From the NCBI GenBank assembly GCA_944384405.1, contig CALWTH010000041.1:65394-129393 (forward strand): 64,000 bases of DNA, given 5' to 3'. Origin of the DNA: an uncultured Clostridia bacterium (lineage in GTDB: Bacteria; Bacillota; Clostridia; Christensenellales; UBA1242). Below are positions 5,909 to 62,290 of the stretch, piece after piece (positions within the stretch are counted from its first letter, which is position 1; each line of letters opens with the position of its first letter). The position numbers and the translations under genes are program-made. The notes beneath the pieces were generated by a model. It was not told the origin of the DNA and did no database searches. It saw only the letters and a program-made list of their open reading frames with translations.

Positions 5909-5921
5909 AAAGGAGAAACTT

Positions 5922-31250: not shown

Positions 31251-31281
31251 AAAAAAAGCAATGAAGTTAAACTTCATTGCT
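31251..31281 (-). terminator. Strong rho-independent terminator after giant gene 2
   Basis: Minus strand GCAATGAAGT-tta-ACTTCATTGC followed by T7. Confidence 0.8.
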
Positions 31282-31286
31282 TTCTA

Positions 31287-34200
31287 TTATTGTATTACTC
31301 CATTTCTTATAAGCAAATTATAAGCGTTAGATGAACTTTGAGTAACACCATTTATTATGAAAGGATAAACAGAAATATAAAAATCATCGAATCCAGTAAA
31401 GTCATATATAAATGATGACAAATAAATGTTGTAGCCATAAGGTAATTTTTGTACACTATTTCCATTGCGTAAATTCTTTAAATACAAGTTCATATTCACA
31501 ACCAAGTCTCCCACTGTAAATGATACATTTTCTTTGATGTCTTGTGTTAATTTTGCATAAAAATCAGCAAAAGTTTCATTTGAACCACTCGTAGAAACAT
31601 ATCCTCCAATAAATCTTGAAACATAAACACTATAAGATATGGCGATGTCCGACTCGGCATTTCCTATATTATCACCGTAAATACTTATATCAGAAGTAAT
31701 TTCGGCATTTACCGTATTGGCGTTTACAATAAATTTACCATTTTGAGTGTTTGACAAAGATTGTGTGTTTGTAATCAAACCAATAACGCCACCAACATAA
31801 CTTGCATTTGATATTTCTTCCTGCGCCGGTTTAATTAATTTAATCACACATGATTGTTCTGTTGCTCCAACTGAAATATCTTGCATGATGACATTTCCAA
31901 ATGTTCCGTTAAATTCAATCTCTCCAACAATTCCACCAAGAGCGCTTTGACCTGTGAGCAAATCACCTGTGTAACTGCTGTTTTGTATCACTACATTTTG
32001 CAACGCTTTTCCTGCAAGTCCTCCGACTTTTCCAACAACTATTGCACTATTGAATTGTATATCAATATCAACATTGCAATCAATTATGTTTTGTGTTTGT
32101 TCTTTGTTCCCACGGACAATTCCACAAAGTCCCCCGACTGCAATTGGAATTTTTGGAGTAAGATTAAAGATGTAATAATTTTGTTGTTCTAACTCCCCTT
32201 CTTCGTCTGTATTTGTGTCTAAAGCATATACGTTCACATTTCTTAAAGTACCTTTAAGATCTCCAACAATTATTCCACCATATGCACTTGCGCGAATGAA
32301 ATAGTTGGCGAGATTTTGATATTGAAATTCAACATCTTGCACTTCGGCGTTCAAACCAATTCCACCAAACATAAATCCGCTTACCATTCCTATTGATGCC
32401 ACAGCGTTTGTGATATAAGCATTTTTAAGTCTACCAACTCCGCCAAGGTATCCAACAATACTTCCTGAATAAGAAACTGTGTTGTAGTTTGAACCACCTT
32501 CTTCATAAAGTATCTGATTTTGGACAGACTGCTCAGTCCAATTATCTGAACTGTTTGTTTGATATGCATTTGTTGAGATTGAAGAATAAATATTTTGTAT
32601 ATCAAACGAATTTACAATTCTTCCGAATACACCACCCACAATGTTCTTGCCTAACACAACGTTTGAAGTCGTGCTGGAGTTATATCCGTCAACAATAACA
32701 TTATAAGCATACATTCTGTTGACTGTACCAGCGATTGTACCAACACTAACTGCGTTTGGAAGGTTGATATATTTTGGTGAAAATTCTATGTTTTGTATAG
32801 TTGCATAGTCACTGCCATAGCCAATTTGTGAGAAATAACCACCAGATGTTACACTTGCATTTGAGTTTATTGAGAAGTTTGAAATACTTAGTCCATTGCC
32901 TTCAAAATATCCGCCAAGAACGTAAGAGTACAACGAACTAACAGCCAAATTCTCTTCGATATAATCAATATCTTTAATCAAACGATAATATTTAGTGTTA
33001 ATATTTCTTATGCTATTTGATATAAAATCTTCTTCAAATAAAACTGCAGAAGCAACAATTATTGGATTGTACATAGAACCTTCGCTGTATGAACCTGGAG
33101 TTTCTGCATAGATATATATTGTTTCGCCTGTTTCTTCAACATATTCTTCTTCAACAATATATTTTGATGAATAAGCAATAATGTTTGCCGTAACAAGTTG
33201 AGGTCTGTTCTCTCTAAATTGCATATATTGTCCATCTTTTTGCAATCCCTGAACAGTAACAAGTCTTGAATATTGTAAATAGTTTCTGTAATCACTAGAC
33301 GAAATTTCCATTCCTGTTGAAATTGTTTGATTTGTCAAGAATGAGTTGTTGTCTTTTGCATAGAACCAAACGCCACTTGCGATATCATCATTACTGTTTA
33401 TTGCAAAACTATCAAACAATTTTTCGCCAACTATATAGTTTGCACCAATGCGCGTGACAGCATAGCCAATAGCAAATTCAATAACAAGTGTTTTTCTAAG
33501 TTTATCATTGCCATATTTTTCATTTGATGTATTGATATCTACATTGAAATTATCATCACTTAAATAATAACTATCAGTTATTGAGCCCTGTGAATAGATA
33601 TAGAATGGGTGGTTACCAATATCTCTATCCCCAAGTTTACTTGTTGTATATGATGATTTAATTTCTCCGTTATTTGTACAAACAAAACCAGAGTTTATAG
33701 ATGAAGATGTCAATGGGATATTCGCATAGCAGTTAGATATTGTACCATCATTTATGTACGCAAACGCCCCTGCAATTGAGTTCGCTCTTATAATGTAATT
33801 GGTGTCACTTGCGTAAACATATGAAAGCCCTGACAAGTATTCGCCTTCAATAAAACTTGCAAATATTGTGCCAGTATTTTGAATAACAAAGCCAGCAGTG
33901 GCATTGTTTACGTTTGTACTTGAATTTCTTATGTAACTTCTCTTTACATAACTTGATGCGACATGTCCATTGTTTATTGCGACGAAACCTGCAAGGTTGG
34001 CTCCATAACTTTCAACACGAATATTTACTCTTGAATTTGTTATGTAACCAGAGTTAACTGCAACAAAAGGTGAAATATTTGAAGTTGATGTTAATGACAT
34101 TGGTGCCGAATTTGTCACAATTAATGAAGATGAGTCATCGCGACAAACAACTTGACAATTTGTTATTGTTCCATTATTTTGTGCACAAAGCAAACCAAAA

Positions 34201-37200
34201 TTAAATACGTTTCCATTGCTTTCATTTCTGAAATTAAATGTTGTATTTCTTCCAACTTCTATGGTTACATTGCAGACAACTGAGTTTTCGTCAATTATTG
34301 AAAATAATCCAAAGTTGTCAATTGTTGTGTAATCGGAATAAATTCCGCTAAATACTATGTTGTGACCGTTTCCGTCAAATCTAGCAACACTTGCATCAAT
34401 TGGCGTGAAATCAGAAGCGATTGTGATATCGTTCATTAAAATATAGTAATTGCCATCACTCATTGCCAATAACTGCTCTTGTGTGTAGATTGGAAGTGGA
34501 CTGTCGAGTGATGTGTTTTGATTGACTGTGACATCAAACTTTTTAATATCTACATCACTTATGTCTTCAAGTTCATCTTCATTTAAGAGCATAACTTGAA
34601 CATAACCATTGAGATATTGAAGTCTTGCATAAACTCCAAGTGAGAATAAATTTTCTCCAACATATTTTACTGTCAAATTATAGCCATCAATATCCAAAAT
34701 ATTATTACTTAAACTTGTTTCGTCTGTGATTCTAACATATCCGTTTTCATCACTTAATTTATAATAGAACACACCATTTTGTTTTAAACTTGCTTTTAAA
34801 GCATTGACAGCAGTAATTGCATTGCCAGAATATTCGACATCAAGATTATCAATAAGCAAATCTCTAATATCAGCACTATTGCCGCGATTTAGATAAATCT
34901 CAGAATTTTTGAACACTTCGTTCATATCATCAAGATTTCCAAGCACATATTCAACAATTGTGCATGTGAACGAATTTCTAATTCCACTCGTTGTGACTCC
35001 GTCAACAGTTGTTGTTCCGTAGTATGTTATTGTGACGTCATATCCACCATATTGCTGACCTTGAGGATAACTTATATTATCTGAAATTTTTAGATAATAT
35101 GTACCATTGTCATTTATAATTTGTGCATATGGTGACGAACTTTCAACAACAACATCAGAAGTTTTGTAACCAACTGTGTTGATATTTAGTAAGTAATTAT
35201 ATCCTCTTGCAACATAGTAATGATCAGATGCACCTTTATCTGCCAAAGTTACTTCAATTGTTTTGTTTAAAGATATTGTCAAAACACGCTGTTGCTGTGA
35301 GTATACGATTTCTCCATCTGCATTATAAAAGTTCACATACAAAGTGATTGAATCACCTTCGGTGACATTTGTTGCCATTCTGTAAAGTACATTAAGTTCA
35401 CCACCAACAATTGATGACTTCATGACTTTTATGCCTGTACTTGTGAAAAAGGCATCTGACGAAATAACTGCTTCTCCTTGATTATTATTTCTTGGAACCA
35501 AAAGCCCAAAAAGTACAACGTTGCCACTGGATATGTTTTCTTGAGAATTTGTAACTTCAATGTAGGAGTAATCAGAATATGCTGGATTTATCACGACTTT
35601 CAATATATTTGGTTCACCGGCGGTAACAATGTTTGTTTCTGTCATTGAATAACTTGTGTTATAGACATAATACCCATCGCCTGTGTCAACCAAAATAACA
35701 TCTTCATTGTTTGTGAAACTATAATTTTTCACAATTACATTATTTATTGGTTGTTTAGCAAAAGTTGCATAAACATTTTTGCTGACTGCCCCATCAGCAC
35801 CTGTGAATGTGAACATATAGTCGCCAATTCTTATTGCGTTGTCTGTGTTCATTTCAAAAGTATAGTCTATATAATATCTTCCATTATTAAAATACACTTC
35901 TGATGCTTTCGCAATAAAGTAGTTTTCAAAGTCTGCATCACCAAATTTCAGAACTTCGCCATTTTCAAGATAGGTGACAAACAATTCAATTTCATCATTA
36001 ATGTCATCTGTTAAATAACTGACTTTAATTGAGAAAACATCACTTGGCACAAGTGAAATGTTTGTCTTGTCACTTTCAATATTATATATTCCCTGTGAAT
36101 ATGTGGTATAAATTGTCTTGCTTATAGTAGCGTCATCTCTTGCAATTTCAACAAAATTAAACTCTGTTTCATCATCTTGTGACTTTGCTAAATACATTTT
36201 TGTATTGTTCACATCAAGATAAATGTAAAATTGAATTGCTTTTGGTGTTGTTTGAGTTTCAGTTCCCACCCCTTGCAAAATAACTGTACCTGAACTTTGC
36301 ACCACATTGACGTCTTCGTTTGAAACTATTTCAAGTTTAGCAGTTTGACTTTCAACAAGATTAATTCGCATATTTCCAACGCTTGCAAAGGCATCAAATC
36401 TTGGATAAAGAGTTGTTGTATTTCTATTTGTCACACTAATTTGTGAATTTTGCAGAAGTTCGTCTGTATAGTCTGATGACAAATACAAGTTTACTCCACT
36501 GACGTAATTTGTCACAACACAAGTTATTTGCTGACTTATTCCGGCATTGAGCACTGAAGTGAGAGTCAAAATAACTGTACCAGTTTTGTGAAGCCTAAGT
36601 TTCCCTTCCGTTGTGATTGATACAACACTAGTTGCATTTGATGAAATTGTTATTTCAACATTTTGGGCAAATAAATCGGAAGGCAAACTCTGTGTATTTA
36701 AAGTATTTAAGTAACTTTGATTTACACTATCTTTTGCTTGATAATACATAACAACAATTTTATTTTTTGTTAAATTCAGATAATTGTCTTTATCTTGAGT
36801 ACCAGTAAACACCTTTTCAAATTGTTCAATTTCAACATTTGCACCAGCAACAAGTTCGCCGTAATATGTGTTTATGCCTTCTATATTACCATTTTGTCCG
36901 TACTGCACAAATGTCCTTGTTATATATGAAAGTGCAGTGTTTGAAGCATCAACATCAACGTTAACTGAGTTGAATATCTTTGCAATACTATTAGAAGCGT
37001 TTGCAACAATCAAAGTTGCATCAAGTCCTGTAAGTGTCCTATCATCTGTTGCTTGAACTTTATTGTTTGATATATCTGAACTTTCTGCATTTCCAACAAA
37101 ACCAATAAGTCCACCAACATAAGTATTTCCACGAACATAAACTCTAGTGGTGTTGCCTAAAATTTCTCCGCCGTTATCTAAAAGTCCAATAAGTCCGCCA

Positions 37201-40200
37201 ACATTTGCACAACTGGAAGCAGAAACTCTTCCTGTTGCCAAAATATTAACGACATTGCCAGCAGTGTTTTTACCCACAACTCCACCAACACCACTAGAAG
37301 TTGTGTTTGCACCAGTCGTTGTGTTTGCACCAGTCACAGATATATAAACTTGGCTTGAAACACCATAGTTATTGTATGTATTCATATTATCGGCTTTAAC
37401 AAACTGCAAATTACCACAGTTTTCACCAACAACACCACCTATATAACTTGTGCCACCAGAAAGTTGAATATCAAGCACACTATTTTTTTGCATGTATGTA
37501 AACATTGTGGAGTTTACAGATGAATTTTGTATATCAATTATATACTCACCATTGTTTTGACCTACACCACCACCAATATATGCCGTTATTGCTGACTGCA
37601 CTTGTACAGTACTTTGACTTAAATTGACATTGACATTTTCAATACTTCCATTATTTACACCAGCCAAAAGTCCTATGTATGAATTTGTGTTACTTTCAAC
37701 ATCTATTGCACCGCTAATTGTTAAATTTTTAACATATGCGCCACTTGCAATACTTGAAAATAGTCCATAGTAGTCGCCTGCATTTAATCCTGCCGTTACC
37801 GAATAAGCAGACTTAACTTTAAAATTAGTAATACCTGATACTGAGCCATCACTTGAAGTCTTGCCTGAAATTCCACCTGTAAGTTCACCCAAAGGTGCAA
37901 TTTCTTCACCACCGCCGTCAATTGTTCCATCTATGATATAATGTTTTGATAAATCAATGTTTTTAAATTGTTCCCAACTTCCAATATGAAGTGGACTAGA
38001 AATTGAGCCATCACCAACAGTAACAGGAATTTCAATAGAATATGAATAATCATTTCTGTCAGAACTATTAAATAATGAGTTTGGTACTATTTTTATAATA
38101 CCACTTCCACCCCCTGCACCTGTGTAATCAACGACAATTCTGTTTTCATCATATTGTAATTGTATAATTGAACCCACTCCATCATTTGGTTCAAACCAAG
38201 CAAAGAAACTTTTATTAGTTGCATTTTGTGGTAAAATATAAGGATAAATAATCTCTTGAGTGTGAGTTGAATCTAGATATATTTCATCTATATAGTTATA
38301 AAACCAAACTTCTTCAACTTGAACATATTGAACAATGTTTATTGTCACAGTTGACGATATCATTGTTCCATATTCATAAATACTTGCTGTAATGGTAAAT
38401 GTTGCTATTGGATTTCCAACTGCATCACAAACAAACATAAGTTCGCCATTATAATTATCATAGTAGTAGCCATAGACTATACTTCCGGCATCGGTAAGGG
38501 CATATCTTCCATAAGCACCATCATATGCCGATGAAACAGAAAAAGAAAATTCAAGATCAAGATTTTGCAATAACAAATCGTTAACATTTGTTTCAATTCC
38601 ATCTAGCATAAGCCTAAATTCAACCATTGCCATTGACCTATCAAAATAGCCAAGAGGAGTGTTTAGGTCATAAACATTGACATTTTTGGAGTATTTTTCT
38701 TCCAAATCACTTGAATTTTTGGCATCAAAACTAAAATTAGAAATTGGTTCAAAACATATGATTTCAAAATCAAACTGTGTACTTTCCAACATTTCTTCGT
38801 CAATAGTTAGCATGAAGTTTTCAATTCTGTTAATTCTCACAGTAACATGAATTGTCTGTCTTGTGTTGTCAACCGAAGTGAAAGAGATAACATTTTCATT
38901 TATTAAAACATTTGTGTTATCACACTGATATGAAATTTCAAACATAGATTGACTTGTTATGCCCATTGGTGATGTGCTTGCTAATATTTCAACATCGCCA
39001 ATTCCTCTCACTGCAACAAAGTCAAGTGTTTCATTTTCGCCAATTTGTCTGTACTGAACCTCGGCAATGTTATCGTCTTTAGTTGAAACATAGAACCAAA
39101 GATTGTCAACGTCAAGTTCATCTTTTACCACTATTGTTATGCGTGTAGAAATACCATTTTCAAGAACAAGTGTGTAATGTGCTTCTCCAACGCTATGTGT
39201 TGTTATATCAATTGACGCAACATCATCTGCAGTTAAAGGCGTTTGAATAATTGTGCATACAGAGGTTGAAACAACATCATCACTTGATGCTGTGATTTTT
39301 CCAACATAAGCACCTTGTTCTTGCACAACAAAGCCACTAAATGTCACACTTTCGCCATTTTTAACATATATAGTTGAATTTGCATAAATATCTTCAACTC
39401 TAAAGTCCGTTGCACTCTTTTGAACTGTGAAATTTATATCGTTATAAATAGTGTCTGTAGTCAATTCGGCATTGACTGTGACTCTGACTACAATTTTTTC
39501 GCCAAGATTTTCAGGCAAGATTTCACGTCCATATACTTGAAGTGGAATTGTTAAATCAGAAATAAGCACATCATTATCAATTTCTTGAATACCATAGATA
39601 ATACAAATATACTGCCTTATATCAGAGTAAGGCACATTTAAAAGTTCGCCACCTCGTTGAATATAAAACGACAAAGACAAGTAATCATAATCAGCGTTTT
39701 GTGGTCTTACAGTAAACAAAAATTGTTTTGCACTGCCGATATCGTCATTGTCAAACAAGTTTATGTCCTGTGCTTCTGTTTGTGCATTTACCAAAACACT
39801 TTCAGGTCTTGATATGATTTTGACTTTATACATAATATCAACATAATAAGCGTCATAGTCGCTATATTTTACTCTTATTACCAAAACATCATCAACAAGT
39901 GCAAAGTCAGTTGCCTGAATTGTCACTTGTTTTATATTTTGCATTGTTGGCGTTTGAGATGTCTGTGCCACTGTATGAGTACTATTTGCAAAAACTTCAT
40001 ATGTGTATGCTTCATCATATGCAAGCATTAACGTCTTTTGAAATTGTTCGTTGTCATTTTCTATAAGTTCAATATAACTATCACTATCTTGATCTATGGA
40101 AGGTATGATTGTATCGTTGTAACTTAAAGAAATATTTTGCGTGTCAATTTCATCAACCACTTTTACTGAAAATGTGTATGTGATATTTTCATCAGCCAAA

Positions 40201-40763: not shown

Positions 40764-40813
40764 TTTCTCTCCATTTTTTGCCATAGTTTGCTTTTCCCCC
40801 TTAAACAGTGCTG

Positions 40814-46800: not shown

Positions 46801-49800
46801 CATAAATATTCGAAGTGCTTGTCGAAACATATGAAACCCTATCATAACTATTGGCAATTCCTGCAACGTGTGCTTCTTGAGAAACTTTTGCATATCCTAA
46901 TTTCTTGTAAACGTCAAAACCGCCATTTCCATTATCTCTGAAAATTCTTGGATGAGTTGCCCCTTGTTCGTCTTCATGAATATAATTTGTCGATTCACCT
47001 TCAAATGTATAATTATACTTTGCATTTCCTATTATATTTTCAGCACGTACATAACTGTTTGAAATATTACCGCCAAAGCCACTTATGCCTCCAACATAAC
47101 TTTTAGAAATGTTATAAGGATTTCCTGCAAAAACTGATGATGTGCCAAATAAACCAGAATTGATTATTTTTCCGGTACCATTATTGCCAATTACAGTTGA
47201 ATCTGCTTGAGATATCAAGTAACCTGCACCACCAACAATTCCACCTGTATAAAGATTTATGCTTGTATTTGAATAAGTAGTGTTTTGTGATTCATCTGCG
47301 TATAAGATATCAGATAATACATACATATTATTTGATAGATAAGAGTTTTCAACAGTTCCATTTTCAAGCAGTCCAACAACTCCACCAGCAATGATTGTCG
47401 ATGTCGCAGTTGGTACGCTGCTGAATGAAATCATAAGCTCTTTATCAATTCGACAATCTTCTACAGTCGCTTCACCTGTGACATGACCAACTATTCCACC
47501 ATAAATAAATGATGAAACTGTAATTCCTAAATTTAATTCAATAATATTGTTATTATCTTTATTGTCTGTTGTTATTAATTGACATTCAGATAGCTTAGAT
47601 CCGCTTCCAAGTTCACCAACAACATTACCATAATAATATGCATTATACTCAAGCTTTTTATTTCTATATATATCTGGGTTTATAGAAGTAATTTTTATAT
47701 TGTTAATATTGGTAGATTCAGTTTTATTTGCAAGCAATCCAACAATGTAATCATTAGCATTTATATCTATAAATAAATTTTCTATAACCAAGTTTTTTAA
47801 TTCACTACTTGTTGTTGTATCAAATAGTCCCCCACCTCTCGTAGTTAAGTTGGATATTTTGTGTGTATTTCCTTGAAAATCATTCAACCCTTCATTTGTT
47901 ATGTCCATCACAGGTGTAAGGGTATCATAACCATCAAGGACAATATTCTTGATATTTTTTATTGATGTCCATTTCAAAAGCGATGATGTTGAAACATAAC
48001 TAGCGTTTATATCATTAACTAAATTGTAATAAGTTTTTTCTGTTGGAGAATTTTCCAACTGTTTAAGTTTACCAAGGTTTGGAATTTGATATGGACTACT
48101 TTGCTTACCATTACCTGTATCATGGCGCATATATTCAATTGACTGGTATGCTCCACCACTAAACGAACCATAGCCATAGGCATATTGACTATCATAATTA
48201 AATGTTCCGATTTGATGATCTTGATCTGGCAATGTGCCAATATAGTTTGTGCTTAAATCTTCTGTATTAACACCGCTGCCGCTACCTTGAACTAAAAATT
48301 CAGCAGCAATTTGATCATAATAACTCTTTTTAACATAAGTTGCATCGTTATTTGAATCAAAGGCAAAGATGTGGTACTTTAATCTCATGTTGTTACCACT
48401 TATATCATTTTCATAAACAACTCTCATATTAGTGTAACTGTCGTAAACCTTACCTGCTGCTAAAAGGTAAACATAAAGATTTGAACCTTTCTCCGAAACA
48501 GCATTTGGTGCGTCTATATTACCACTACTATAACTATTTACCACCATTCCATCATTAGTTCCAACAAGTCCAGCAACTGCGACATCTTGTGCCTCACCAG
48601 TTTCATTTTCTTCTTGTTTTCCAACATATGATGGATTATTTCCGCCATCTTCATATTCCGTTGAAATATTGAGGCTTACAAAACTATCTTTTATAAGTCC
48701 GCTATTTTCACCAACAAGTCCAGCAACAGCACCTTTCCCGGCATCAATTGTTCCAACAAGTTTTTGTTGATTGCCTGATAGTGCATTAGTTGAATCTGAA
48801 TCTAAATTGTTGAAAATACTATTACTTCTGCTTACATTGCAAGAATATATGATACCCTCATTTTGGTATGTAAGGCCAGCGACTGGCAATGTATTATAAC
48901 TTGCAACACCAGAACTATCTTGTCCAATAACAAAACTTGCAACAACAACTATTCCTGATACACTGCTATTTTTATCTATTGATTGTATAGGAGATAATGA
49001 CGACTTTGAATCCTTATTTATATTTGTATTTGAGAATGTCAAAAGTGCACCGTCACCAATCACCACCGTATTGGTTAAAGCAGTAAGCTGATGTACTCCA
49101 CCATCAGTGTTATCTGAAAGTTTAACATACCAAGTTTGCTCATCATCAATAACACTTGCTCTTTCTTGAGAATTTGAAGGATTTAACTTTGTACCAGCAG
49201 TTTCGCCGTTATAAAGAATTTGACTATATAACTCATCTTCTTCATCAAGGTCAATTATTACCTCAATATTGTCATAAAGTGTTGTATTCCCTGCTATTCC
49301 AGAAAGTATATTTTCATATGAAACATTATTACCTAAACTATCAGTACACAAAGTTGCCACATGTGCATAATAGTTTTCATTATCTATGGTGACACTTTCT
49401 GTGCCTGAGCCAACTAGCGCATTCACTTCATATGTGCCTGATATATCTCTATCATATCTATTAAATAATGTTGCTATTGATATATTCTTTTCAATAGTTA
49501 AATTATCATTAACAACCCCAACAAGTCCGCCATATGTTAAACTTGCAAGGTTAATTGAAACTGACTTTGTTATTTCTGTCTTGTTTTGTGAAGTGCTCTT
49601 TTTATAAGATGGATAGAAGTTGCCTGTACTTATATTATTTCTTAAAGCAACACTTGAACTACTTACAGTTGCAACAATACCAGAAAAGATCAAAGATACA
49701 TTTGAATAATCTTGAGTTTCATCATTTATGACTATGTGCTTAATGTCACCGAATGAATAACAATTTTCTATTGAACTATTATTTGTTGCCCTTCCAGCAA

Positions 49801-52800
49801 TTCCACCAACGTAAATAACATAATTATTTTCACCGCTAGTTTGTTCCAAAATTATTTCGCCATAACTTTCAGCTCCATATAATGTTCCGTTAGTCAAACT
49901 TCCAACAATTCCGCCAATATAATCGTAGTGTCCATTGCCTTGCACAGTTATATCAACAAGCGACTGAATGATATGCTTGTTATTATTTACCAAGTTCAAG
50001 TTTGTCAAACTACCAAATACAGAGCCAATGTTGTTTCCATTGTCTTCGCTTATACCCCTGGCGTTGATTACATTTATTCCAGCACCAACATCCGGTACAT
50101 TATTGTTTGATACATCTATGCTTGTATTTTCGTTAAAAACAATATTTTGTGAATATCCAACAATTCCACCTATACTTGAATTTGCTGTCGTTACGTTCAT
50201 TAAAACATCGACATTGATTTCATCTAAGGTTATATTTTGACTATAACCTATAAGTCCTCCGACATAAGAATCAATAAACATCACATCGTCTTCTGCTGAC
50301 AATTCAATATCTAGATTATTTGAAGACACAATAGCATTGTCAACATAACCAAATAGCATTCCCAATCTAAGTCCATAGATTTTAGAATCAGTGGAATCAG
50401 AATTAAACTTAATACCTGATTCAAAAACACCAAATTCATCTTGGTCATTTGTTGAACCATCAATAGAGATTTGACTTTCATTACCAGTTGATGATGCTAA
50501 TCTTCCTGCAACCAAACCAACATAAAGCGAATTATTTTGATTGTTTTGTGCATCAGTGAAAATAATGTGGCTTTGTTTTATCGCAATTGAAGAAATTGAA
50601 CCTGTTGTTAAATATGATTCACCAAAAACTAAGCCAACATACAAAGATGTGCTTAACAAATTACCCGAATTGTTATCTTGTGAAGTTGACGCCTTAAATG
50701 AAATATCACTTTCTTGTATTTTGATATTCCTAAAAGATGTACTTCCACGTGCCATACCAGTTACAAGTCCAAACTGTGAAGTCGATGTGTTTATATTTGC
50801 TTTTACACCCCTAAATGTCAAATCAGCAAATGTTGTATTTGTTGAATTAGCGACAAGAATTGCATTTTGGCTAGTATTTGCAGCGCTTTCAAAAGTAGTA
50901 TTTTCAAAAGCTATTGTGAAATTACTAAATGTTGCACCAAGTGTGTTTGTGAAAAGCGCTCTTGTCTGTTTTGCTGTATTTTTAAACAAGAAACCGTACT
51001 CATATCTATTATCAAGTCCTCTCAATTCGCCTGAGAATGCGTTGATAGGAGTTATTGCACGTGTAATTACAACATAACGTACATCTTCTGGATAACCTTG
51101 ATGACGTTTATCGGTCATATCTGGATCAATGACAAATATATCATTTTCACCTGCAGTACGCATATCTTCTATATCTTCCTCAGTTCTTATATAGTGTATA
51201 CCACCTAAATAACCAAATACAATATGTGGATAAAGTTCATTGTCATCTCTGCTCCAAGAAGATTTATCCCATCCATTGCCAGTGAAATAGACATCATAAT
51301 TTTCACCATCATCACCAGCGCCTGTTATTGTGTCAACAAATGAAGGCAATGATGTGATTATACCACCTCCTGAAACATCATTTATATATTGTTGTGCAGA
51401 AGGAGTAAGTGTTTCACTTGCATCTGTAAATTTAATATTTTCTCTGTTAAAAGATATAGAAGATGTGTAAGTAGTATCTATGTTGTTGATATCAACAAGA
51501 CTATCGTCTACTCTAATAATAGCATTTGCTTGACCTTCACCACCTAAAAGCCAATCACCCCAATAATTTATTGCATTTACTTTGTCAAGACGCATACTTG
51601 CGCGTGCAAGTCCAACAATTCCTGAAGCATATTGCGATTGAACATCACCAGATGCATAAACTTCAATAATATTTGTTTCAACATAGGTGTTAGGATTTGA
51701 TGACATTTCGCTTAAACCAATTATGCCACCAGCATAAACACCGCCATTTTGTGAGTTTTGTGTTCTTGTGTTAATTACATTTAATTTAGAGTATGATTTT
51801 TCAATTTTTCCACTAACTTGCAAACCAACAAGACCACCAATAGCAATAGGGGTGTAACCTTCTGTCATAAATAACTGAGTATTACCTCTATCAATATCAT
51901 CATTATTTGGATAATTTGCATAGTAATTTTTGATGTTTGCTTCAATACTTTCATCGCCATCGTCATTTGGATCGTCATCACCAATTTGCCATGATTTTTC
52001 ATGCTCACTTCTCACTTGACGAATATAACCAGCATTATATCCAACAATACCACCTGCGAATCCATTATATGAGTATATTCCTTGTCGAGAATAGTTTTGT
52101 GAATCAACATAACTAAGTTCATATAAGGCATCTTGAAGAACTGTTAATGGTCCAATATATCCGGTAACTCCGCCTACCGTACCACCTGAAATAATATTTG
52201 TTCCAAGTGTTTTTAGCATAATAGCATTGCCATCAGAAGATATTTGTTGTTCAGCATATACCGTTGTATTTATAGAAGCTGAAGTATAAGCATCAAGTAC
52301 ACCAACAACACCACCTGCATAAGAAATGTAAGCGTTTAAAATATCGCTTGTTCTATTGTATGTATTATAAGAGATATAACTATTTGAAATATAGTTTGTT
52401 GGATTCATGCTTGCCGTTACACTGATATCCTGTACACTTAAATTGAATATATATGAATCACCAATTACGCGTCCAATAAGTCCACCAACAACGTTTTTCC
52501 CTCTGACTGTAACATTACTTGCATTATCATAAGCCGATACAAGAGAAACATTAACAACTGTTGAATTTTCGACTGTTCCACTAAGTGCACCAACATACTC
52601 AACCCCAGATGCTTCAACCCCAAACACGTCACCACCTGCGTTAGTTGAACCTAAGACTAAGTTTACGTTTTGGACAATAGCGCCATCGGTCACACTTGCA
52701 AACATACCAAAATTAACGGCTTCGCCGTCTGGGTCAGAAAGAGCTAGTCCAGAGATTGTTAAGCCATTTCCATCAAACTTACCTATTGAACCTTGATTGC

Positions 52801-55800
52801 CCACATCTTTGTATTTTCCTGTTAGTGTCATGCTTGATGATGCAAGGGTGTAAGTGTTGTTACTATCTGTAATAAGTTCACTTAAATCTATGTCATTTAT
52901 TAATCTATATGAACCAAAAATCTCGCGAGAAGATGTATTCACATATCTTGACGCACTTGAATTGTCTGTGCCACTAAACACTTTTGCGAATTCTTCTGCT
53001 GATCTTATAAGAATAGGGTTGTTTTTTGAACCATATCTATACTCATCAACATAGGCAAATATTGGTCGAGTGCTTTGATCTGCATTGCTTGCATATCTTA
53101 ATGAAACAGATATTTGATTTGCACTGACAAGTTCAGGTCCTACACTTGTCATAAACCATATTCCATCATTTTCATCTTCTGTCGTTTTGTTTGCAAAACT
53201 AAAACCATAGAGATAATCTTCATCAGTGATACTTGAAATATATTCAGCACCTTCACCATATGCCGATTCAATAAAGACTGATGAGTCAGAAAGAGAAACT
53301 TCATCATAATAATATGAATTGGTAATTTCTCCCAAATTCTGATAGTTGCCAAAGTCATCAACACCGGCAAAATTCATCTGGGTAGTTGTTGTGCCCACAA
53401 TTCTTGAAAGAGACAAACTTTTTTCAACAACTCCTGATTCTGTATTTCTATAAACAAAGCCAGCGCTGTTTCTTCCTGGATTATTGTTTTGATTTGTTAG
53501 CGTTAAGTTAGAATAACTGTTGTTTATTTCGCCTGAGTTTTCATAAACAAATCCAGCACTTATACCAGATGTTTCAATACCATAAAGTGTAGCATGAATA
53601 TCTGTGCTTTCTCTTTTAACTCCCTTTGCGTAACTTGCACTGATAAGTCCAGCGTTTTCAACAACAAAACCTGCAGTAATAGTCGTATAATCTATGTTAC
53701 TATTATTAATTATTCTTATATTTGAAGCATAAGAACTAACGATGTGCCCTGAACTTGTGTTACTGTAAACAAAGCCAGCAATTTCACCAAACGATGAAAT
53801 TACAAATGGTGAAAGGAAATGTGTTTGAGGAGAAATTATACCTGTGTTTATAAGATCTCCATTTGAGTCGTATTCAACTACACTCTCTCCGCCAACACGG
53901 CTATTGGTTATGATTCCATTATTTGTGACAACAAAACCAGCAGTAATTGCTGAAACTCCAATAGTTGAATCAGTTGTTAAACTAAGCCCTGTAACAGCAG
54001 GTGCTATTTCGTTTGTAAGATCTCTAAAACTTACAACTTCGCAGTTTGTTATTATACCATTGTTTGTTATTGCTATAGGAGCAATATTAACTGTGTTTGT
54101 GTAAGCCGAAGTAATAGAAATTGTGTTTAGATGGAACACATTAACTCTTAAATTTTTAAGCGTAGTATTTGAAGATACAGTGTTAAAGAGCGCTAAATCT
54201 ATTTGAGATTGTGTGTTGTCATAGTTAAAGCTTACAATGACAATTTGATGACCGTTTCCATCAAGACTACGTAGTTTTGAAGTATCTTGAGCAGGAGTGT
54301 AATCGTAAAGGTGGATATCTTTTGTCAAAATATAGTCTTCTTCTGACTCGCCATTTAGTGCGTTTAAAAATTCTTCTGCGTTTGAAATTTGTGATGGTGA
54401 ATCATCGCTTGTTGGATCAGAAATTACTATTGAGAAGAAGTAATTATATGTGCGAATTGAAAGGTCAGGCATTTGAACACGCATTTGAAGTAACATTTGT
54501 TGTGTTCCGTTTTGTGTACCAATAAATCTTATATCGTTATCAGTTTGTTCAAATCTTACAATAGTATCACTTGGTGAAGTAATTTCACCTGAGTTATTTA
54601 ATACAGGAGTATATACTTTACCATTTACATAATATAAGTTATATAAAAGTGAATTATTTTTATTTCCATCAATATTTACAATATAATCGCCACTTACATA
54701 ATAATTATTTTGAGTAAACTCATTGTATGCTTGCTCACTTGCAGAAATCGAGCCATCTTCATTTTTAACATACCTTCCACCAAAGTTAAATTTTAATGTA
54801 TGGTAGAAATATTGGTCACCAGTTGCAATATCTGTGCCCTCTTCATTTGCAATATGAGTGTTAGAGAAATCAAGTTCAAAATCAATGACATAAACTACTA
54901 AATATGAGTAAACTGTTTCTTTTACTCCGTTTATTGTACGTGAAGTATCAACTCTTACTCTAAAGTTACTTGCATTTTCTCCAATTTCAATATTTATGGA
55001 AGCTTTGTAATAACTTGTTGCATATTCTTCACGATCTGAATCGCTGACACTTGATGGAAGACTTACATCACCGGCAACCATAGTATCGGCACTGTTATCA
55101 GAGCCCGGATCAGTACTTGAAGGCAACACAAAGGCAGTGATTGAATCTATGCTTTGAGTCTGATCCCAAATTATGTCAGCAGTTATTGTTTCACCACGTA
55201 TTGCATATATTGAACTTTCTCCATCAACTGTTATCCCAGCCTTTTCTTGAGGAACAATAATGAGAGAGTAAGGCAATGTGTACATAACCTCATCGCCGTT
55301 CATAACATTTACATATATAGTATAAACAGTGTCAACTTGAACACCTTCTGGAACTTTAACCCTTACATAATACCTTGCGACTTCACTTTCACTGTCTACT
55401 TTATAAACTTGTATACCATTGGTGATATATGCAAATGTATTAGCAAGATTTACACTATAGCCCTGACCTTTTTTTCTCATATTCAAAAAGCTTAGAGCTA
55501 TACCATTTTGTGGTTCACTTGTGACAGTGATGTGAGTGTATTTTGCATATGAAGGATAAACCATTATATCCAAAAGTCCTGTCGTGTTTGGTGAAGAAAC
55601 ATTGTTTGGATAGTAGTTGTAAAGTGAAACACCTGTTTCGCTAGACGCACCACTTCTTTGAGAATAATGATTAATGTCAACGCGAAGCACTTCTTGATCA
55701 AGAACTGTAAGTTCAAGAGTTGCTCTCACATCATCATACTCACTTGGACTATCTGTGCTGAAAACAACTGTGTATTTGCTGTCAAACTGTGTAAGCTTGG

Positions 55801-58800
55801 TATTCAATCTTATTGTTACTTGATAAATCCTTGTTGTTGTGTTGTTTTCGTTCTCAGTTTCGTTTTTCAGTGTTACATCATACAAAACATCGTCTGAATT
55901 TATTAACTGAAGATTACTGTCATAAGTTTCAATGACAAGTTCAATATTTTCTAAATCTTCAAGATATCTTGTATCAGATGTAACTTCAACATTTGTCACT
56001 AACTGATCGCTAGCAGAAATTGTTGCTCTATTAACAGAACTTTCAATAGAAATAGGTCCATAAATTTTGTGCAAAGTTATTGTTTTTTGAGTGTAAAGTT
56101 TAATAGAATCACAATTATTTTGATTTAATCCATCAAGATAAAGATATGTCAAAATCTCAATATCATCTTGATTAAAATCTCCAACAATGGTATGAGTACC
56201 AAGTGTTGAACCCAATATAAATCCAACATTTTGTTCATCTTCTGACTGAACAAAGCGGATAACATAATTGTTTTGAGCAAGTGGTATTGCCCTATCAACA
56301 AGTATGATAGAAGATTCAAGAGATGAAATTAATGTTTCATTTACTCTTGTTCTTATATTAATTTTTGAATAATCACCCAAAGTTTGTCCATTGTATGTCA
56401 AAACAAGTGGCGATGTGTAATAAATAACTGTAACATTTATTTGTTTTGCTCCCACTGAATAGTCATATAAAGAAGTTATAGTTAAAGTTGTTGTTCCAGT
56501 ATTTTTAATTGTCAAACTATTAGTTGATGTCACGACGACACTTGGATTAGATGATGTGACAACAATTCCGCTAGCAGAATATGTACCAAAAAGGTCACCA
56601 TATGATATGGTGTTTACAACTGACATGAGTTGTTGTTCCCTGCTTGTCAAATTTACGCCATTTGCACGATAGAAGAACATTACAACTTCGCCACCATTTT
56701 CTGCAAGAGAAAGCCTTGACTGAGTGATTGTCAACTCAGCCAACTGTTTACCTGTTATTGCCACAGGTGGTTGGAGATTATATATGTATGGAAATCCATG
56801 ATTTACTGACTTGTCTTGTTGCCACCAAATTGCTTTTGATGTATCCATAGCAACATCTGGATAACTTTGTGTGGCACTGCTTGAATATGTTCCGGTAATT
56901 GTCCTACCCAAAAGGTTGGTCATATAATAAGTAAATACATAATTTATATTTGTATCTATATCATCTATATTTGTAGTAATAGTGTAACTATCTGAAATAA
57001 TGGAAGTTAAATCTTCTTCTGTAACATCTGCAAATTCGCCAAAACTTCCAATGTCGGCAAAACATTTATCAATACTTACATCTTTTGATGAAATTTTTCC
57101 AACAATTGCTCCAACATTTTGTGATGTTGATATTGGGTCTTTACTGAAAGAATAAGCATAACTTGACTGGATTTTTCCATGACCTGTAAGTTCACCAACA
57201 AGTGCACCAACTATATGTCCGTCTATGTTAGTTGTTGTATTGCCTTCAAAATTATAGAACAGTACTTTACTATTTATTATTTCGCCGTCATTAACTGCAA
57301 CTATACCACCAACAACAGAGTCCTCCCCTGTGGAAGTGATGTTTCCAGCAAATGTTACATTTTCAATTAATCCATAGTTTTTCTGAGCAATACCACCAGC
57401 ATCACCAGCAGAGTTTACACTTGAAGGTGTTATTACCTCTCCTTGGCTGTAAACACTTACTGTAACATTTTTGATTGTTCCATAGTTTGTATCAACAAGC
57501 ATTGAAGATGCATTGACATTACCAACGATAGCCAAGTCTGATATGATTGCCTTTTCTGACAATGTTCCAAAAAGGTTATTGGAGTTACCACTAAATGTTA
57601 TTGTAACGACATTTTGTGAACCCTCATTAGCACTTCCATAAAGTCCACCATTAAACTCGCCAAACAACTGATTTGAACTTGAATAAGTATCTCCGCTTAA
57701 AAGTATGTAGTGCAAATCTGAATTTGTTATTTCGCTTAAACTTGTTATTCTTAGAGCAGTTTCACGTGTTCTACCATCAGCAACAAAAATGTCAACTTCG
57801 GCATATACATATCCATCGCGATAATATTCATGACCATTATTGTCAACAAACACGCTGTCTTTTGGAATTACTCTTATCTTACCACTTCCACCTACCGTAC
57901 CTTGTGTTGTGATAAATCCATCTTCACTAATTGTTAAAATAGTACTTAGTGTTCCACTGTCTGGAATAAATCTATAAACAACACCTTTGTTAAGTGCGTC
58001 ACTTGGCAAAACACTAACTGCAAGTTTGAAAGATGTCAAACTGATGTCATTAGTAAGATTTGGCGCTTCCAAATAAATACCATCTTCGCCAACATTGCCA
58101 ATTATCACCTCTTCAACAAGTTGAGGTTTTTTCATTGTAACCGTCAAAGATATTGAATACTCGTTTCTGTCAAGGTTCAAATCACGAGAAACAAAATTTA
58201 TTATTGCAGATTCAAACTCAGTTGCCCCTATATCATCTGTGCCATCATCGTTTCGAGTAAGCGCACGAACAAGGAATTGATAATCATTTATTTTTTCAAT
58301 TTCAAAATTAATTTTTCCGCCAGGAACAAAATACTGATATAATCCATCGCCAACACTTGTCATACCTTCAATTTCCAAAAGGTTATATGTTGGAAGTGAA
58401 TTGCCACGATTGACGGTAAATGTGACAATTTGTTCACTTAGTTGAACATTTTCTTGACCAAGTTCATCGGCAGGATAAAGGCTGACTTCTTTTGAATCAA
58501 TCTCTATTGAAATAATAGGATTATAAATTTCAACTAACAAATACCTGGATATTTGAATATCGCTGTAAACATTTTCGCCATTGTCATCAACAATCTGTTT
58601 TCCAGTGAAGATTGCTCTTACCCAAACTTTACCAACAGCGATTGGAGATATGTATCTAAGTGACCTTAAATAGTTAGCACTGATAACTTGTGAAGTGTTA
58701 TTTGAAAAATTCTCATCATTAGGCTTGTTTTTTCCAAAATTAACATAACCGCTATTTTCGTCATAGACATCGTCAACAGTGCTGTCATAAACATAGTCAA

Positions 58801-60777: not shown

Positions 60778-60806
60778 AGTATAAGAATATTTGCCCTTTA
60801 TGTCAA
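60778..60806 (-). promoter_or_regulatory. Near-consensus sigma-A promoter of the giant-gene operon
   Basis: Minus strand TTGACA, 17-nt spacer (TAAAGGGCAAATATTCT), TATACT. About 70-nt leader. Confidence 0.65.
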
Positions 60807-61630: not shown

Positions 61631-61660
61631 AAAAAAACCCTTTTTTAAAGGGTTTTTTTA
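61631..61660. terminator. Bidirectional terminator between acpP and the M23 peptidase gene
   Basis: A7-CCCTT...AAGGG-T7. Confidence 0.7.
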
Positions 61661-62230: not shown

Positions 62231-62290
62231 TTTAACCTCCGAACTAATTGTTGACTTGTTTTTCATTTGTTATACATATAAATTTTAAAA

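What the first reader, a model, noticed from the sequence alone, without database searches (positions are those of the whole stretch)
31700..57780. At least nine reiterated beta-helix modules share one entry motif in the two lipoproteins
Seen in the translations: each module opens with a short P-x-x-I-x-(S/T)-x-(E/x)-(E/Q)-(F/L) segment (SPLHIGSWEQF, SPLPIYTQEQL, NPIIVASAVLF, SPSQISNAEEF, NPILIRSAEEF, SPYQIPNLGKL). Several then continue with Y-x-L-x-x-D-I and F-(D/E/Q)-G-N-G-(H/L)-x-I. After that come many roughly 20-25-residue turns carrying (V/I)GG(L/V/I)(I/V)G-x-N-x-G or AGF(V/A)-x-x-N-x-G-x-I. That is the GLUG motif pattern known from streptococcal IgA1/Zmp proteases and other large Firmicute surface proteins. 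Modules alternate with Ig-like stretches: three in the 3,158-aa protein and at least six in the 6,628-aa protein. The copies are diverged with no long nucleotide repeats visible, so this is old modular expansion rather than assembly duplication. It is not obvious what nine parallel beta-helices on one lipoprotein pair would bind or do.
Basis: partly seen in the sequence, partly recalled or inferred. Interest (0 to 1): 0.6.

Follow-up and report, generated by a model that had tools for sequence, protein, structure and literature searches.

The report
Giant lipoprotein pair with ten beta-helices
Two adjacent giant membrane-anchored surface proteins of an uncultured, small-genome gut Clostridia bacterium carry ten copies (three and seven) of a known beta-helix domain (GLUG type) separated by antibody-like spacer domains. 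They most likely act as attachment fibres, and the building block is ordinary even though this protein family has never been studied.

Summary
All six quoted entry strings sit at the stated places. The two minus-strand ORFs (A 31287-40784, 3165 aa; B 40814-60700, 6628 aa) carry ten beta-helix modules, three in A and seven in B.

Pfam GLUG (PF07581) hits eight of the ten modules, five of them above the curated cut-off. The two modules without a hit (A-M2, B-M2) give a profile that retrieves almost only PF07581 proteins, with E down to 2e-19. AlphaFold models of A 915-3165 show three beta-solenoids. Each is capped by the entry motif, which forms a strand, a short helix and a strand. The closest solved structure is 3N6Z; Gram-positive IgA1 protease chains rank below it, interleaved with other beta-helix hits. 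The stretch between M1 and M2 folds as tandem Ig-like sandwiches.

The entry motif is not special to these genes. Unrelated GLUG proteins carry the same DPYxI(S/T)xxEQL...YxLxxDIDL...FxGxFDGNGHxI signature.

A and B are collinear paralogues: M1-M3 predate the gene duplication and M4-M7 are B-only. The tandem B-A pair is conserved in about 30 gut MAG species of the UBA1242/Christensenellales type. At least 466 diverged protein clusters share the architecture, and almost none is named.

No catalytic domain was found. The most likely role is surface adhesion or partner contact, which is an inference. This is a new member of a known kind, of moderate interest.

The parts
60778..60806 (-). Promoter-like site (TTGACA-17-TATACT, 11 of 12), about 78 nt upstream of the B start codon
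   Evidence: Consensus scan only; not shown to function.
40814..60700 (-). Gene B: 6628-aa predicted lipoprotein (signal peptide plus lipobox VFSAC) with seven GLUG-type beta-helix modules M1-M7
   Evidence: ORF and translation. Collinear with A over B 897-2802. Orthologous giant ORFs lie directly upstream of A orthologues in 26 related loci.
56801..57778 (-). B-M1 (aa ~975-1300), degenerate cap TALRITSLSEI
   Evidence: Pfam GLUG 26.2 bits. The cap HMM built from A-M1 orthologues hits B 978-1073 at 14.3 bits. hhalign to A-M1 gives 96.3%.
53261..54412 (-). B-M2 (aa ~2097-2480), AGFV-type module, cap SPSQISNAEEF
   Evidence: No Pfam hit. hhalign to A-M2 gives 99.9%, E 7e-32. The cap HMM from A-M2 scores 42.5 bits. 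Three AGFVxxNxGxI rungs.
51401..53032 (-). B-M3 (aa ~2557-3100), cap NPILIRSAEEF, FDGNGLTI
   Evidence: Pfam GLUG 21.3 bits. hhalign to A-M3 gives 99.2%. The cap HMM from A-M3 scores 22.3 bits.
49151..51253 (-). B-M4 (aa ~3150-3850), long module, degenerate cap GIHYIRTEEDI
   Evidence: Pfam GLUG 35.1 bits in 4 stretches. hhalign gives 96-98% to A-M1, A-M3, B-M6 and B-M7. Not modelled.
48131..49063 (-). B-M5 (aa ~3880-4190), short AGLVG-type module with no clear cap; the least certain module
   Evidence: Pfam GLUG 14.3 bits, below the cut-off. hhalign gives 96.9% to A-M2 and 95.5% to B-M2.
46721..48109 (-). B-M6 (aa ~4198-4660), cap SPYQIPNLGKL, YNLVNDI, FQGNTHKI
   Evidence: Pfam GLUG 22.9 bits. 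hhalign gives 97% to A-M1, B-M4 and B-M7.
46565..46723 (-). Hydrophobic island (B aa ~4660-4712) between M6 and M7; possible membrane hairpin
   Evidence: Kyte-Doolittle peak of 2.17. Present in many but not all B orthologues. Role unknown.
44501..45733 (-). B-M7 (aa ~4990-5400), degenerate cap ATIKVNSVEDY
   Evidence: Pfam GLUG 17.7 bits, below the cut-off. hhalign gives 98.4% to A-M1 and 98.2% to B-M4.
31287..40784 (-). Gene A: 3165-aa ORF (probably 3158 aa from Met8 at 40763), predicted lipoprotein (LLSAC) with three modules
   Evidence: 29-nt gap after the B stop codon, and a Shine-Dalgarno sequence before each of the two candidate ATGs. 23 homologues of 3.1-3.7 kaa. The lipobox Cys is invariant.
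36825..38009 (-). A-M1 (aa ~926-1320), cap SPLHIGSWEQF
   Evidence: Pfam GLUG 17.9 bits. AF2 model: solenoid at model residues 17-330, with the cap as strand 18-20, helix 23-27 and strand 34-37.
34530..36767 (-). Inter-module stretch A aa ~1340-2085: about six Ig-like beta-sandwich domains followed by a mixed alpha/beta domain
   Evidence: AF2 pLDDT of 75-88. Foldseek matches to Sap, SbsB, KIT, ICAM and complement MG arrays, E 9e-13 to 1e-5.
33540..34514 (-). A-M2 (aa ~2091-2415), AGFV-type module, cap SPLPIYTQEQL, YILMNDI, FDGNGHNI; part of the best-conserved region of A
   Evidence: AF2 pLDDT of about 90 over model residues 10-230. Column identity of 0.6-0.7 across 13 orthologues. Its profile retrieves PF07581 proteins.
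31605..33080 (-). A-M3 (aa ~2569-3060), cap NPIIVASAVLF, YRLIKDI, FEGNGLSI
   Evidence: Pfam GLUG 23.2 bits. AF2 pLDDT of about 90 over model residues 490-770.
31253..31285 (-). Terminator-like hairpin immediately after the A stop codon
   Evidence: pattern match only.

Best explanation
B and A form a two-gene operon for a pair of paralogous giant surface lipoproteins of an uncultured low-GC gut Clostridia bacterium, probably of the reduced-genome UBA1242 / Christensenellales group.

**Shown.**
- Each protein is a chain of GLUG-type parallel beta-helix domains, three in A and seven in B. The modelled stretches between them are Ig-like beta-sandwich arrays and a small mixed domain.
- The 'entry motif' is the N-terminal cap of each solenoid, formed by a strand, a short helix and a strand. 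The YxLxxDI strand and the FDGNGHxI turn open the first rungs.
- A and B arose by duplication of an ancestral three-module gene. B later gained four more modules.

**Inferred.**
- After Sec export and lipidation at the lipobox Cys, the proteins project from the membrane as long fibres.
- The Ig-like arrays act as spacers, and the non-catalytic beta-helices act as binding platforms for a ligand on another cell or on host material. This follows the one GLUG beta-helix with a known role, in S. pneumoniae IgA1 protease, which binds the IgA1 Fab.
- In an organism proposed to depend on a partner, the pair would be part of the attachment apparatus.
For: **Identity of the modules.**
- GLUG hits in eight modules.
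- All ten modules are linked by profile-profile comparison at 95-99.9%.
- The M2 profile retrieves PF07581 proteins at E down to 2e-19 in 5.8e9 sequences.

**Fold.**
- AF2 models have pLDDT of about 90 in the modules.
- The best solved match is 3N6Z. IgA1 protease chains 7UVL, 7UVK and 6XJA/6XJB also appear in the list. Most other hits are right-handed beta-helices.
- The spacers are Ig-like arrays.

**Cap.** The three modelled modules show the same strand-helix-strand at the motif. The same signature occurs in unrelated GLUG proteins.

**Paralogy.**
- BLASTP collinearity of A 850-2780 with B 897-2802.
- Cap HMMs built from A orthologues hit B one to one.

**Operon and lipoprotein.**
- 29-nt gap between the genes, with a promoter-like site and terminators flanking the pair.
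- Lipoboxes, with the Cys invariant in A orthologues.

**Conservation.**
- The tandem pair occurs in 26 of the loci fetched from 35 GTDB species.
- 466 clusters at E<=1e-30, nearly all of about 3.1-3.7 or 5-6.5 kaa, with the module at about residues 2100-2900.

**No enzyme signature.**
- No Pfam or NCBIfam catalytic family, no HExxH, no LPxTG.
- Invariant residues in the modules are mostly Gly, Asn and hydrophobic, which are structural.

**Precedent and context.**
- The IgA1 protease beta-helix binds the Fab and gates the active site (PMC7695701).
- GLUG proteins are proposed as adhesins in a gut archaeon (PMC9723798).
- UBA1242 genomes are under 1 Mb, and a partner-dependent lifestyle is proposed for them (PMC12306168).
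Against: - Nothing here shows binding, surface exposure or expression.
- The Foldseek E-values to solved GLUG structures are weak (3.6e-3 for 3N6Z), and TM-scores are low because the queries are multi-domain.
- The AF2 alignments are shallow (11-12 sequences).
- B-M4 to B-M7, the two N-terminal ~900-aa regions and the last ~1200 aa of B were not modelled.
- M2 and M3 are the best-conserved parts of A (0.6-0.7 column identity). That fits a fixed ligand or an enzyme better than a variable adhesin tip.
- The same fold houses many glycan-cleaving enzymes.
- The hydrophobic island in B is not explained by a simple fibre model.
- Assignment of the window to UBA1242 rests only on the names of related MAGs.
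Confidence: 0.6

Rival explanations
1. The beta-helix modules are enzymes, such as polysaccharide lyases, glycosidases or depolymerases. On this reading the pair is a surface-tethered multi-enzyme array that degrades host glycans or a partner's cell envelope.
For: - The right-handed beta-helix fold is shared with pectate and alginate lyases, GH55, GH110 and phage tailspikes, all of which appear in the Foldseek lists.
- M2 and M3 are the most conserved regions of A.
- An M23 peptidase gene lies just upstream of B.
- Giant proteins of predatory bacteria have been linked to cell wall degradation (bioRxiv 10.1101/2023.11.21.568195).
Against: - No catalytic Pfam or NCBIfam family is hit, even at permissive E-values.
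- The enzyme matches have low Foldseek probability (0.03-0.5), against 1.0 for 3N6Z, 0.97 for 7UVL and 0.90 for 7UVK.
- Invariant residues are almost all Gly, Asn and hydrophobic, with few conserved acidic residues.
- The only GLUG beta-helix with a known role is non-catalytic.
- A terminator-like hairpin separates the M23 gene from B.
Confidence: 0.15
2. The pair forms a cell-covering coat, in the manner of an S-layer or a sheath, rather than discrete adhesive fibres.
For: - The best structural matches of the Ig-like array are the S-layer assembly domains of B. anthracis Sap and G. stearothermophilus SbsB (E 9e-13 to 2e-9).
- RsaA S-layer chains appear among the beta-helix matches.
- The pair appears widely conserved across the lineage.
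Against: - There is no SLH, CWB2 or other known S-layer anchoring domain.
- Proteins of 350 and 730 kDa are far larger than known S-layer subunits.
- The Sap and SbsB similarity may only reflect chains of Ig-like domains: KIT, ICAM and complement arrays score almost as well.
- The RsaA matches have low probability (0.08-0.15).
Confidence: 0.1
3. The proteins are IgA1-protease / Zmp-type proteases whose protease domain is too diverged to detect.
For: GLUG was first noted in streptococcal IgA1 and Zmp proteases. IgA1 protease chains are among the structural matches.
Against: - There is no HExxH anywhere in A or B.
- There are no Peptidase_M26 or G5 hits.
- There is no sequence match to IgA1 protease chains in the PDB, with single sequences or with a profile.
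- The structural match covers only the beta-helix.
Confidence: 0.03

Closest known systems
GLUG-motif beta-helix domain family (Pfam PF07581); solved example 3N6Z (Bacteroides ovatus BACOVA_03286)
   Same: - The same rung motif, (G/A)G(L/F)(V/I)(G/A)xNxGxIxN(C/S)Y.
- The same N-terminal cap signature.
- Pfam hits in eight modules.
- The M2 profile retrieves PF07581 proteins.
- 3N6Z is the best solved structural match.
   Different: - Most family members retrieved are single-module proteins of 300-600 aa. Here three and seven modules are strung along 3.2- and 6.6-kaa lipoproteins, with Ig-like arrays between them.
- Two modules (A-M2, B-M2) have drifted to an AGFV rung that the Pfam model no longer scores.
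Gram-positive IgA1 metalloproteases / Zmp family (S. pneumoniae IgA1P 6XJA/6XJB; G. haemolysans 7UVK/7UVL)
   Same: They contain one GLUG-type beta-helix of about 270-290 residues. It binds the IgA1 Fab and gates the active site (PMC7695701). It is structurally similar to the modules here.
   Different: - No M26 protease domain, HExxH, G5 domain or LPXTG anchor here.
- Ten helices instead of one.
- Lipoprotein anchoring.
Firmicute S-layer assembly domains (B. anthracis Sap 6QX4/9G93; SbsB 4AQ1)
   Same: Chains of about six Ig-like beta-sandwich domains. These are the best structural matches to A 1340-1955.
   Different: - No SLH anchoring domain.
- The array is an internal spacer between beta-helices in a much larger protein.
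- Lattice formation has not been tested.
Large modular surface adhesins built on beta-helices (L. reuteri SRRP binding region 5NY0/5NXK; autotransporter passengers such as Ag43 7KOH and Hbp 3AK5)
   Same: Right-handed beta-helix used as a non-enzymatic binding or scaffold element on the cell surface. These appear in the Foldseek list at low probability.
   Different: - Different rung motifs and different anchoring (LPXTG or beta-barrel).
- One helix per protein.
- No detectable sequence relation.

Membership tests
GLUG beta-helix domain (PF07581) | Match to the Pfam GLUG model at or above the gathering score (20.5 bits) | tested here: met
   Met for A-M3, B-M1, B-M3, B-M4 and B-M6 (21.3-35.1 bits). 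Below the cut-off for A-M1, B-M5 and B-M7 (14.3-17.9 bits). No hit for A-M2 and B-M2.
GLUG beta-helix domain (PF07581) | Homology of the modules without a Pfam hit to recognised GLUG proteins | tested here: met
   The profile of A-M2 plus orthologues and B-M2 retrieves 172 proteins, almost all annotated PF07581, with best E 2.4e-19 for a PF07581-annotated protein. hhalign links A-M2 to A-M1 at 99%.
GLUG beta-helix domain (PF07581) | Parallel beta-helix fold resembling solved GLUG-type structures | tested here: met
GLUG beta-helix domain (PF07581) | N-terminal cap signature (D/N)PYxI(S/T)xxEQL ... YxLxxDI ... FxGxFDGNGHxI | tested here: met
   Present in full or in part in A-M1 to A-M3 and in B-M2, B-M3 and B-M6. 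Degenerate in B-M1, B-M4 and B-M7. Absent in B-M5. The same signature was seen in P0026, P0027, P0032, P0045, P0092 and P0121.
IgA1 / Zmp metalloprotease (peptidase M26) | Zinc-binding HExxH and the M26 catalytic domain | tested here: not met
   No HExxH in A or B. No Peptidase_M26 hit. No PDB sequence match.
IgA1 / Zmp metalloprotease (peptidase M26) | LPXTG cell wall anchor and G5 domain | tested here: not met
   No LPxT[GAN]. No G5 hit.
Bacterial lipoprotein | N-terminal signal peptide ending in a lipobox with an invariant Cys | tested here: met
   A has ...FTFLLSAC|GEN and B has ...GVVFSAC|GEN. C30 is invariant in 13 A orthologues. This rests on sequence pattern only.
Bacterial lipoprotein | Lgt and LspA encoded in the genome; protein lipidated | not testable with these tools
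   The rest of the genome is not available, and lipidation needs an experiment.
S-layer protein (Sap / SbsB type) | SLH or equivalent cell wall anchoring domain, and self-assembly into a lattice | tested here: not met
   No SLH hit. Only the Ig-like array resembles the assembly domain. Lattice formation cannot be tested here.
Beta-helix polysaccharide lyase / glycosidase | Match to a catalytic family model and a conserved catalytic acid/base cluster | tested here: not met
   No such Pfam or NCBIfam hit at E up to 10. Invariant residues are mainly Gly, Asn and hydrophobic.

The most novel reading that the evidence does not exclude
The conserved B-A pair is the core contact organelle of an obligately partner-dependent Clostridia lineage (UBA1242). 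On this reading:
- the two fibres carry ten beta-helix binding sites that dock the cell onto a specific host bacterium or host epithelial glycan;
- the hydrophobic island in B anchors or inserts part of the fibre into a membrane;
- the pair therefore defines the lifestyle of the lineage.

This would parallel what is proposed for giant surface proteins of Patescibacteria and Omnitrophota.
Probability: 0.2. Interest if true: 0.7.

Novelty: new member of a known kind. Interest (0 to 1): 0.4.

Why it matters
The building block is a known domain, so the finding does not reveal a new kind of system.

It does define a large protein family that is essentially unannotated. The family comprises at least 466 clusters at 50% identity, and one of the few source names seen is 'hypothetical protein'. 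It takes up about 3% of genomes reported to be under 1 Mb (my estimate from 29.4 kb and PMC12306168). It is conserved as a gene pair across a gut lineage proposed to live off other cells.

If the pair mediates attachment, it is the obvious handle for finding the partner of these uncultured bacteria. Recombinant modules could be used as baits.

The work also records two points for which I found almost no published description:
- The P-x-x-I-x-S/T-x-E-E-L / YxLxxDI / FDGNGHxI signature is the N-terminal cap of GLUG beta-helices in general.
- An AGFV-type rung variant escapes the Pfam model.

Tried and rejected
**Searches that failed or found nothing.**
- Whole-protein Pfam scans of A and of the N-terminal half of B returned nothing. 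The GLUG signal appeared only when modules were scanned separately at a permissive E-value.
- Sequence searches of the PDB found nothing relevant, either with A and B or with a profile of M2+M3.
- NCBIfam gave only noise.
- Pfam on the non-helix segments gave only faint sub-threshold Invasin_D3 and Big_2 hints at the N-terminus of A.

**B orthologues.**
- The full-length query was too long, and a 4571-aa query timed out.
- The M4-M7 query returned a single protein because the candidate list was swamped.
- I therefore took the C-terminal halves of B orthologues from the 10-kb flanks of the A loci. The N-terminal halves of B orthologues were not examined.

**Counting rungs.** A self-trained rung HMM and a PSSM were over-fitted to the M2 type and under-counted rungs. 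I used a simple core regex with a shuffle control instead.

**An error of mine.** My first AGFV regex had one dot too many and returned no hits. It was corrected.

**Readings considered and rejected.**
- Assembly duplication: there are no DNA repeats.
- An IgA1 protease proper: there is no HExxH.
- Involvement of the third giant protein C: it has no GLUG motif and no cap.

Full report
**What is in the window**

The window has about 32% G+C and reads in the standard bacterial code. Three giant ORFs lie on the minus strand:
- C: 9484-20793, 3769 aa.
- A: 31287-40784, 3165 aa.
- B: 40814-60700, 6628 aa.

The finding concerns A and B.

A and B are separated by 29 nt.

The pair is flanked by pattern-level transcription signals. 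A promoter-like site (TTGACA-17-TATACT) lies about 78 nt upstream of B. Terminator-like hairpins follow the upstream M23 peptidase gene and the stop codon of A.

Both proteins begin with a basic, hydrophobic signal peptide ending in a lipobox, LLSAC|GEN in A and VFSAC|GEN in B. The Cys is invariant in 13 A orthologues.

The genes downstream of A are housekeeping genes: holB, a PSP1 protein, a methyltransferase and rsmI.

**Check of the observation**

All six quoted entry strings occur at A 930, 2095 and 2573 and at B 2101, 2561 and 4202.

| Pattern | Observed in A+B | Expected by shuffle | In protein C |
|---|---|---|---|
| Strict P..I.[ST]..[EQ][FL] | 3 | 0.02 | 0 |
| Looser entry form | 11 | 1.7 | 0 |
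| Generic GLUG-like core | 36 | 4.3 | 0 |

The follow-on motifs are real:
- YxLxxDI occurs five times.
- F(D/E)GNG(H/L)xI occurs three times, with two close variants.
- AGF(V/A)xxNxGx(I/V/L) occurs five times, all in A-M2 and B-M2.
- (V/I/A/L)GG(L/V/I)(V/I/A)G occurs 21 times, all inside modules.

Of the 36 GLUG-like cores, 33 lie inside the ten module ranges, which hold 48% of the residues.

No DNA repeat family is longer than 42 nt or more than 82% identical. The short ones simply encode the GG(L/V)(I/V)G turns. The sequence-level observation is therefore confirmed and well above chance.

**How many modules, and are they GLUG?**

Whole-protein Pfam scans were nearly empty. Scanning ten candidate modules one at a time gave PF07581 hits in eight.

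| Module | GLUG score (bits) | Against the 20.5-bit cut-off |
|---|---|---|
| B-M4 | 35.1 | above |
| B-M1 | 26.2 | above |
| A-M3 | 23.2 | above |
| B-M6 | 22.9 | above |
| B-M3 | 21.3 | above |
| A-M1 | 17.9 | below |
| B-M7 | 17.7 | below |
| B-M5 | 14.3 | below |
| A-M2 | no hit | - |
| B-M2 | no hit | - |

A-M2 and B-M2 use an AGFV rung instead of GG(L/V)(I/V)G. Three results tie all ten together:
- Profile-profile comparison with orthologue alignments links every module to at least one other at 95-99.9% probability. Examples are A-M1 to A-M2 99%, A-M1 to B-M7 98.4% and A-M2 to B-M5 96.9%.
- A profile of the M2 type, searched against 5.8 billion proteins, retrieved 172 proteins that almost all carry PF07581. 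They are typically 300-600 aa. The few with a source name come from Phycisphaerae, Fibromonadales and Bacteroides ovatus. The best PF07581-annotated hit has E 2.4e-19.
- The alignment of M2 orthologues shows about eight regular rungs of the form (A/G)GFVxxNxGxIxx(C/S)Y.

So there are ten modules, three in A and seven in B. B-M5 is the least secure: it is short, has no recognisable cap and scores below the Pfam cut-off.

**Fold**

Two AlphaFold2 jobs with orthologue alignments covered A 915-3165.

| Model | Region | Mean pLDDT | pTM |
|---|---|---|---|
| 1 | A 2085-3165 | 77.5 | 0.77 |
| 2 | A 915-2090 | 74.7 | 0.44 |

In model 1, M2 and M3 have pLDDT of about 90 and consist of runs of three short strands per turn. 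In model 2, M1 is a solenoid of the same kind.

In all three modules the entry motif has the same structure:
- a short strand (PIY, IIV or LHI);
- a 5-10-residue helix (EQLLA, AVLFEEDFIS or WEQFK);
- the YYxL strand.

The motif is therefore the N-terminal cap of the solenoid.

**The stretches between modules**

In model 2, residues 428-1040 (A about 1340-1955) form about six all-beta domains with pLDDT of 75-88. A mixed alpha/beta domain follows.

Foldseek matched this region to chains of Ig-like domains:
- the B. anthracis Sap S-layer assembly domain (E 9e-13 to 4e-10);
- SbsB;
- KIT, SYG, ICAM and complement MG arrays.

'Ig-like stretches' is thus supported for the M1-M2 interval. The M2-M3 linker is a smaller mixed domain of lower confidence. 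The N-terminal ~900 aa of both proteins and the last ~1200 aa of B were not modelled. Pfam gives only faint Invasin_D3 and Big_2 hints there.

**The entry motif is generic**

Eight unrelated proteins retrieved by the M2 profile were read. Six of them carry the same opening:
- '...GTGEPNDPYLISTPDQF...YFRLSNDIDL...HLDGGGHKI'
- '...DPYLIYTAEQM...HFKLMADIDL...FGGVFDGNGHKI'
- '...YTITTAQQL...FEGTFDGNGYEI'
- '...IPISNRSELEAI...FHLTADIDL...FTGIFDGQGHVI'

I found almost no literature on it. A full-text search for GLUG motif, domain or repeat returned five papers. One of them calls it a motif 'of unknown function' that may act in adhesion.

**History of the modules**

BLASTP aligns A 850-2780 collinearly with B 897-2802 (24% identity, E 9e-38). 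The N-termini also align.

Cap HMMs built only from A orthologues find B one to one:
- capM1 hits B 978.
- capM2 hits B 2097.
- capM3 hits B 2557.

So a three-module ancestor was duplicated as a whole gene, and M4-M7 are additions to B.

Two rung types exist. The GG(L/V)(I/V)G type is found in M1, M3, M4, M6 and M7. The AG(F/L)V type is found in M2 and M5.

**Distribution**

A has 23 full-length homologues of 3.1-3.7 kaa, at 74% down to 25% identity. Only one carries a source name, 'hypothetical protein'.

A scan of one genome per GTDB species found 35 loci. They come from gut MAGs labelled uncultured Clostridia, Firmicutes or 'Christensenella sp. UBA1242 / UBA5893'; one each is labelled Lachnospiraceae and Gastranaerophilales. 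In 26 of the fetched loci a giant ORF lies directly upstream of the A orthologue. It usually runs off the 10-kb flank, and it is 6599 aa in L001.

B orthologues keep M4-M7 down to loci whose A is 36% identical. More distant loci have shorter B-type proteins.

An exhaustive HMM search of 1.84 billion cluster representatives gave the following:
- 466 proteins at E<=1e-30. Nearly all are 3.1-3.7 kaa or 5-6.5 kaa, with the module at about residues 2100-2900.
- 5846 proteins at E<=1e-3.

GTDB family UBA1242 is described as having genomes mostly under 1 Mb and lacking many biosynthetic pathways. [quoted passage not shown] Placing this window in that family is an inference from the names of its relatives.

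**What it most likely does**

Shown:
- an operon of two paralogous predicted lipoproteins;
- ten GLUG beta-helices with caps;
- Ig-like spacers;
- deep conservation.

Not found:
- any catalytic family, HExxH, LPxTG, SLH or G5;
- any conserved residues in the modules beyond mainly Gly, Asn and hydrophobic ones.

The one GLUG-type helix with a known role, in S. pneumoniae IgA1 protease, binds the IgA1 Fab and moves as a gate (PMC7695701).

The best-supported reading is therefore a pair of long, membrane-tethered fibres. The beta-helices would be binding platforms and the Ig-like arrays would be spacers. The fibres would attach the cell to another cell or to host material. This is an inference, and I give it about 0.6 overall. 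The structural part taken alone is about 0.9.

**Rivals and open points**

| Rival reading | Main argument for | Main argument against | Probability |
|---|---|---|---|
| Enzymatic array | Same fold as many lyases and tailspikes; M2 and M3 are the best-conserved parts of A | No catalytic signature | ~0.15 |
| S-layer-like coat | Sap and SbsB matches | No anchoring domain; extreme size | ~0.1 |
| True IgA1 protease | GLUG was first noted in these enzymes | No zinc-binding motif | ~0.03 |

A hydrophobic island in B (aa ~4660-4712), present in many but not all orthologues, is unexplained. It could be a membrane hairpin.

**Verdict**

The module is a known domain and the entry motif is its standard cap, so this is a new member of a known kind.

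What is new is the description of a large, unannotated, lineage-wide family of paired giant multi-beta-helix lipoproteins in reduced-genome gut Clostridia. That makes it a sensible target for finding what these organisms attach to.

Noticed in passing
window 9484-20793 (-): A third giant ORF (protein C, 3769 aa) with an N-terminal transmembrane anchor instead of a lipobox. It is beta-rich and has no Pfam hit, no GLUG core motif and no cap motif. It is separated from A by about 10 kb of housekeeping genes. Together the three giant genes take up 40.7 kb of this 64-kb window.
   Followed up: partly
window 46565-46723 (-), B aa ~4660-4712: A hydrophobic island of two ~20-residue stretches (Kyte-Doolittle peak 2.17) lies between B-M6 and B-M7. 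It sits between the conserved motifs '...YYDV(D/N)' and 'YY(F)xGNGY'. It is present in many B orthologues and weak or absent in others. It may be a membrane hairpin in the middle of an otherwise extracellular protein.
   Followed up: partly
window 40763 versus 40784 (-): A has two in-frame start candidates. Orthologues align from the second (Met8), which has a GGAG Shine-Dalgarno sequence, so the protein is probably 3158 aa rather than 3165 aa.
   Followed up: partly
window 21142-23574 (+): An 810-aa ORF without any Pfam hit. Its position near the pair is conserved in close relatives (L004, L005, L010; 31-47% identity).
   Followed up: partly
window 4876-7499 (+), beside tRNA 7729-7801 (-): A cluster of small ORFs that includes an integrase-like fragment (5261-5506) and two paralogous CxxC zinc-ribbon ORFs (5853-6230, 6246-6566). 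GC skew is reversed here. It looks like a degraded mobile element next to a tRNA gene.
   Followed up: no
L038 3994-13734 (MAG GCA_963637495.1): In this MAG the part corresponding to B M4-M7 is a separate 3246-aa ORF (P0024, 27% identity over 83% of the query). Other large ORFs cut by the contig ends flank it. B may therefore be split, or fused, differently in some lineages.
   Followed up: no
L021, L024, L029, L031 (upstream ORFs): In the most distant loci (A about 25-33% identical) the gene upstream of A aligns to only part of B (roughly B 2150-4540). The one complete example, in L029, is about 2700 aa. The number of modules in the B-type partner therefore varies across the family.
   Followed up: partly
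window 61658-62266 (-): An M23 peptidase gene lies immediately upstream of the B-A operon and is followed by a strong terminator-like hairpin (61661-61629). Whether it is linked to the pair in other genomes could not be checked, because the flanks of the related loci do not reach the start of B.
   Followed up: no
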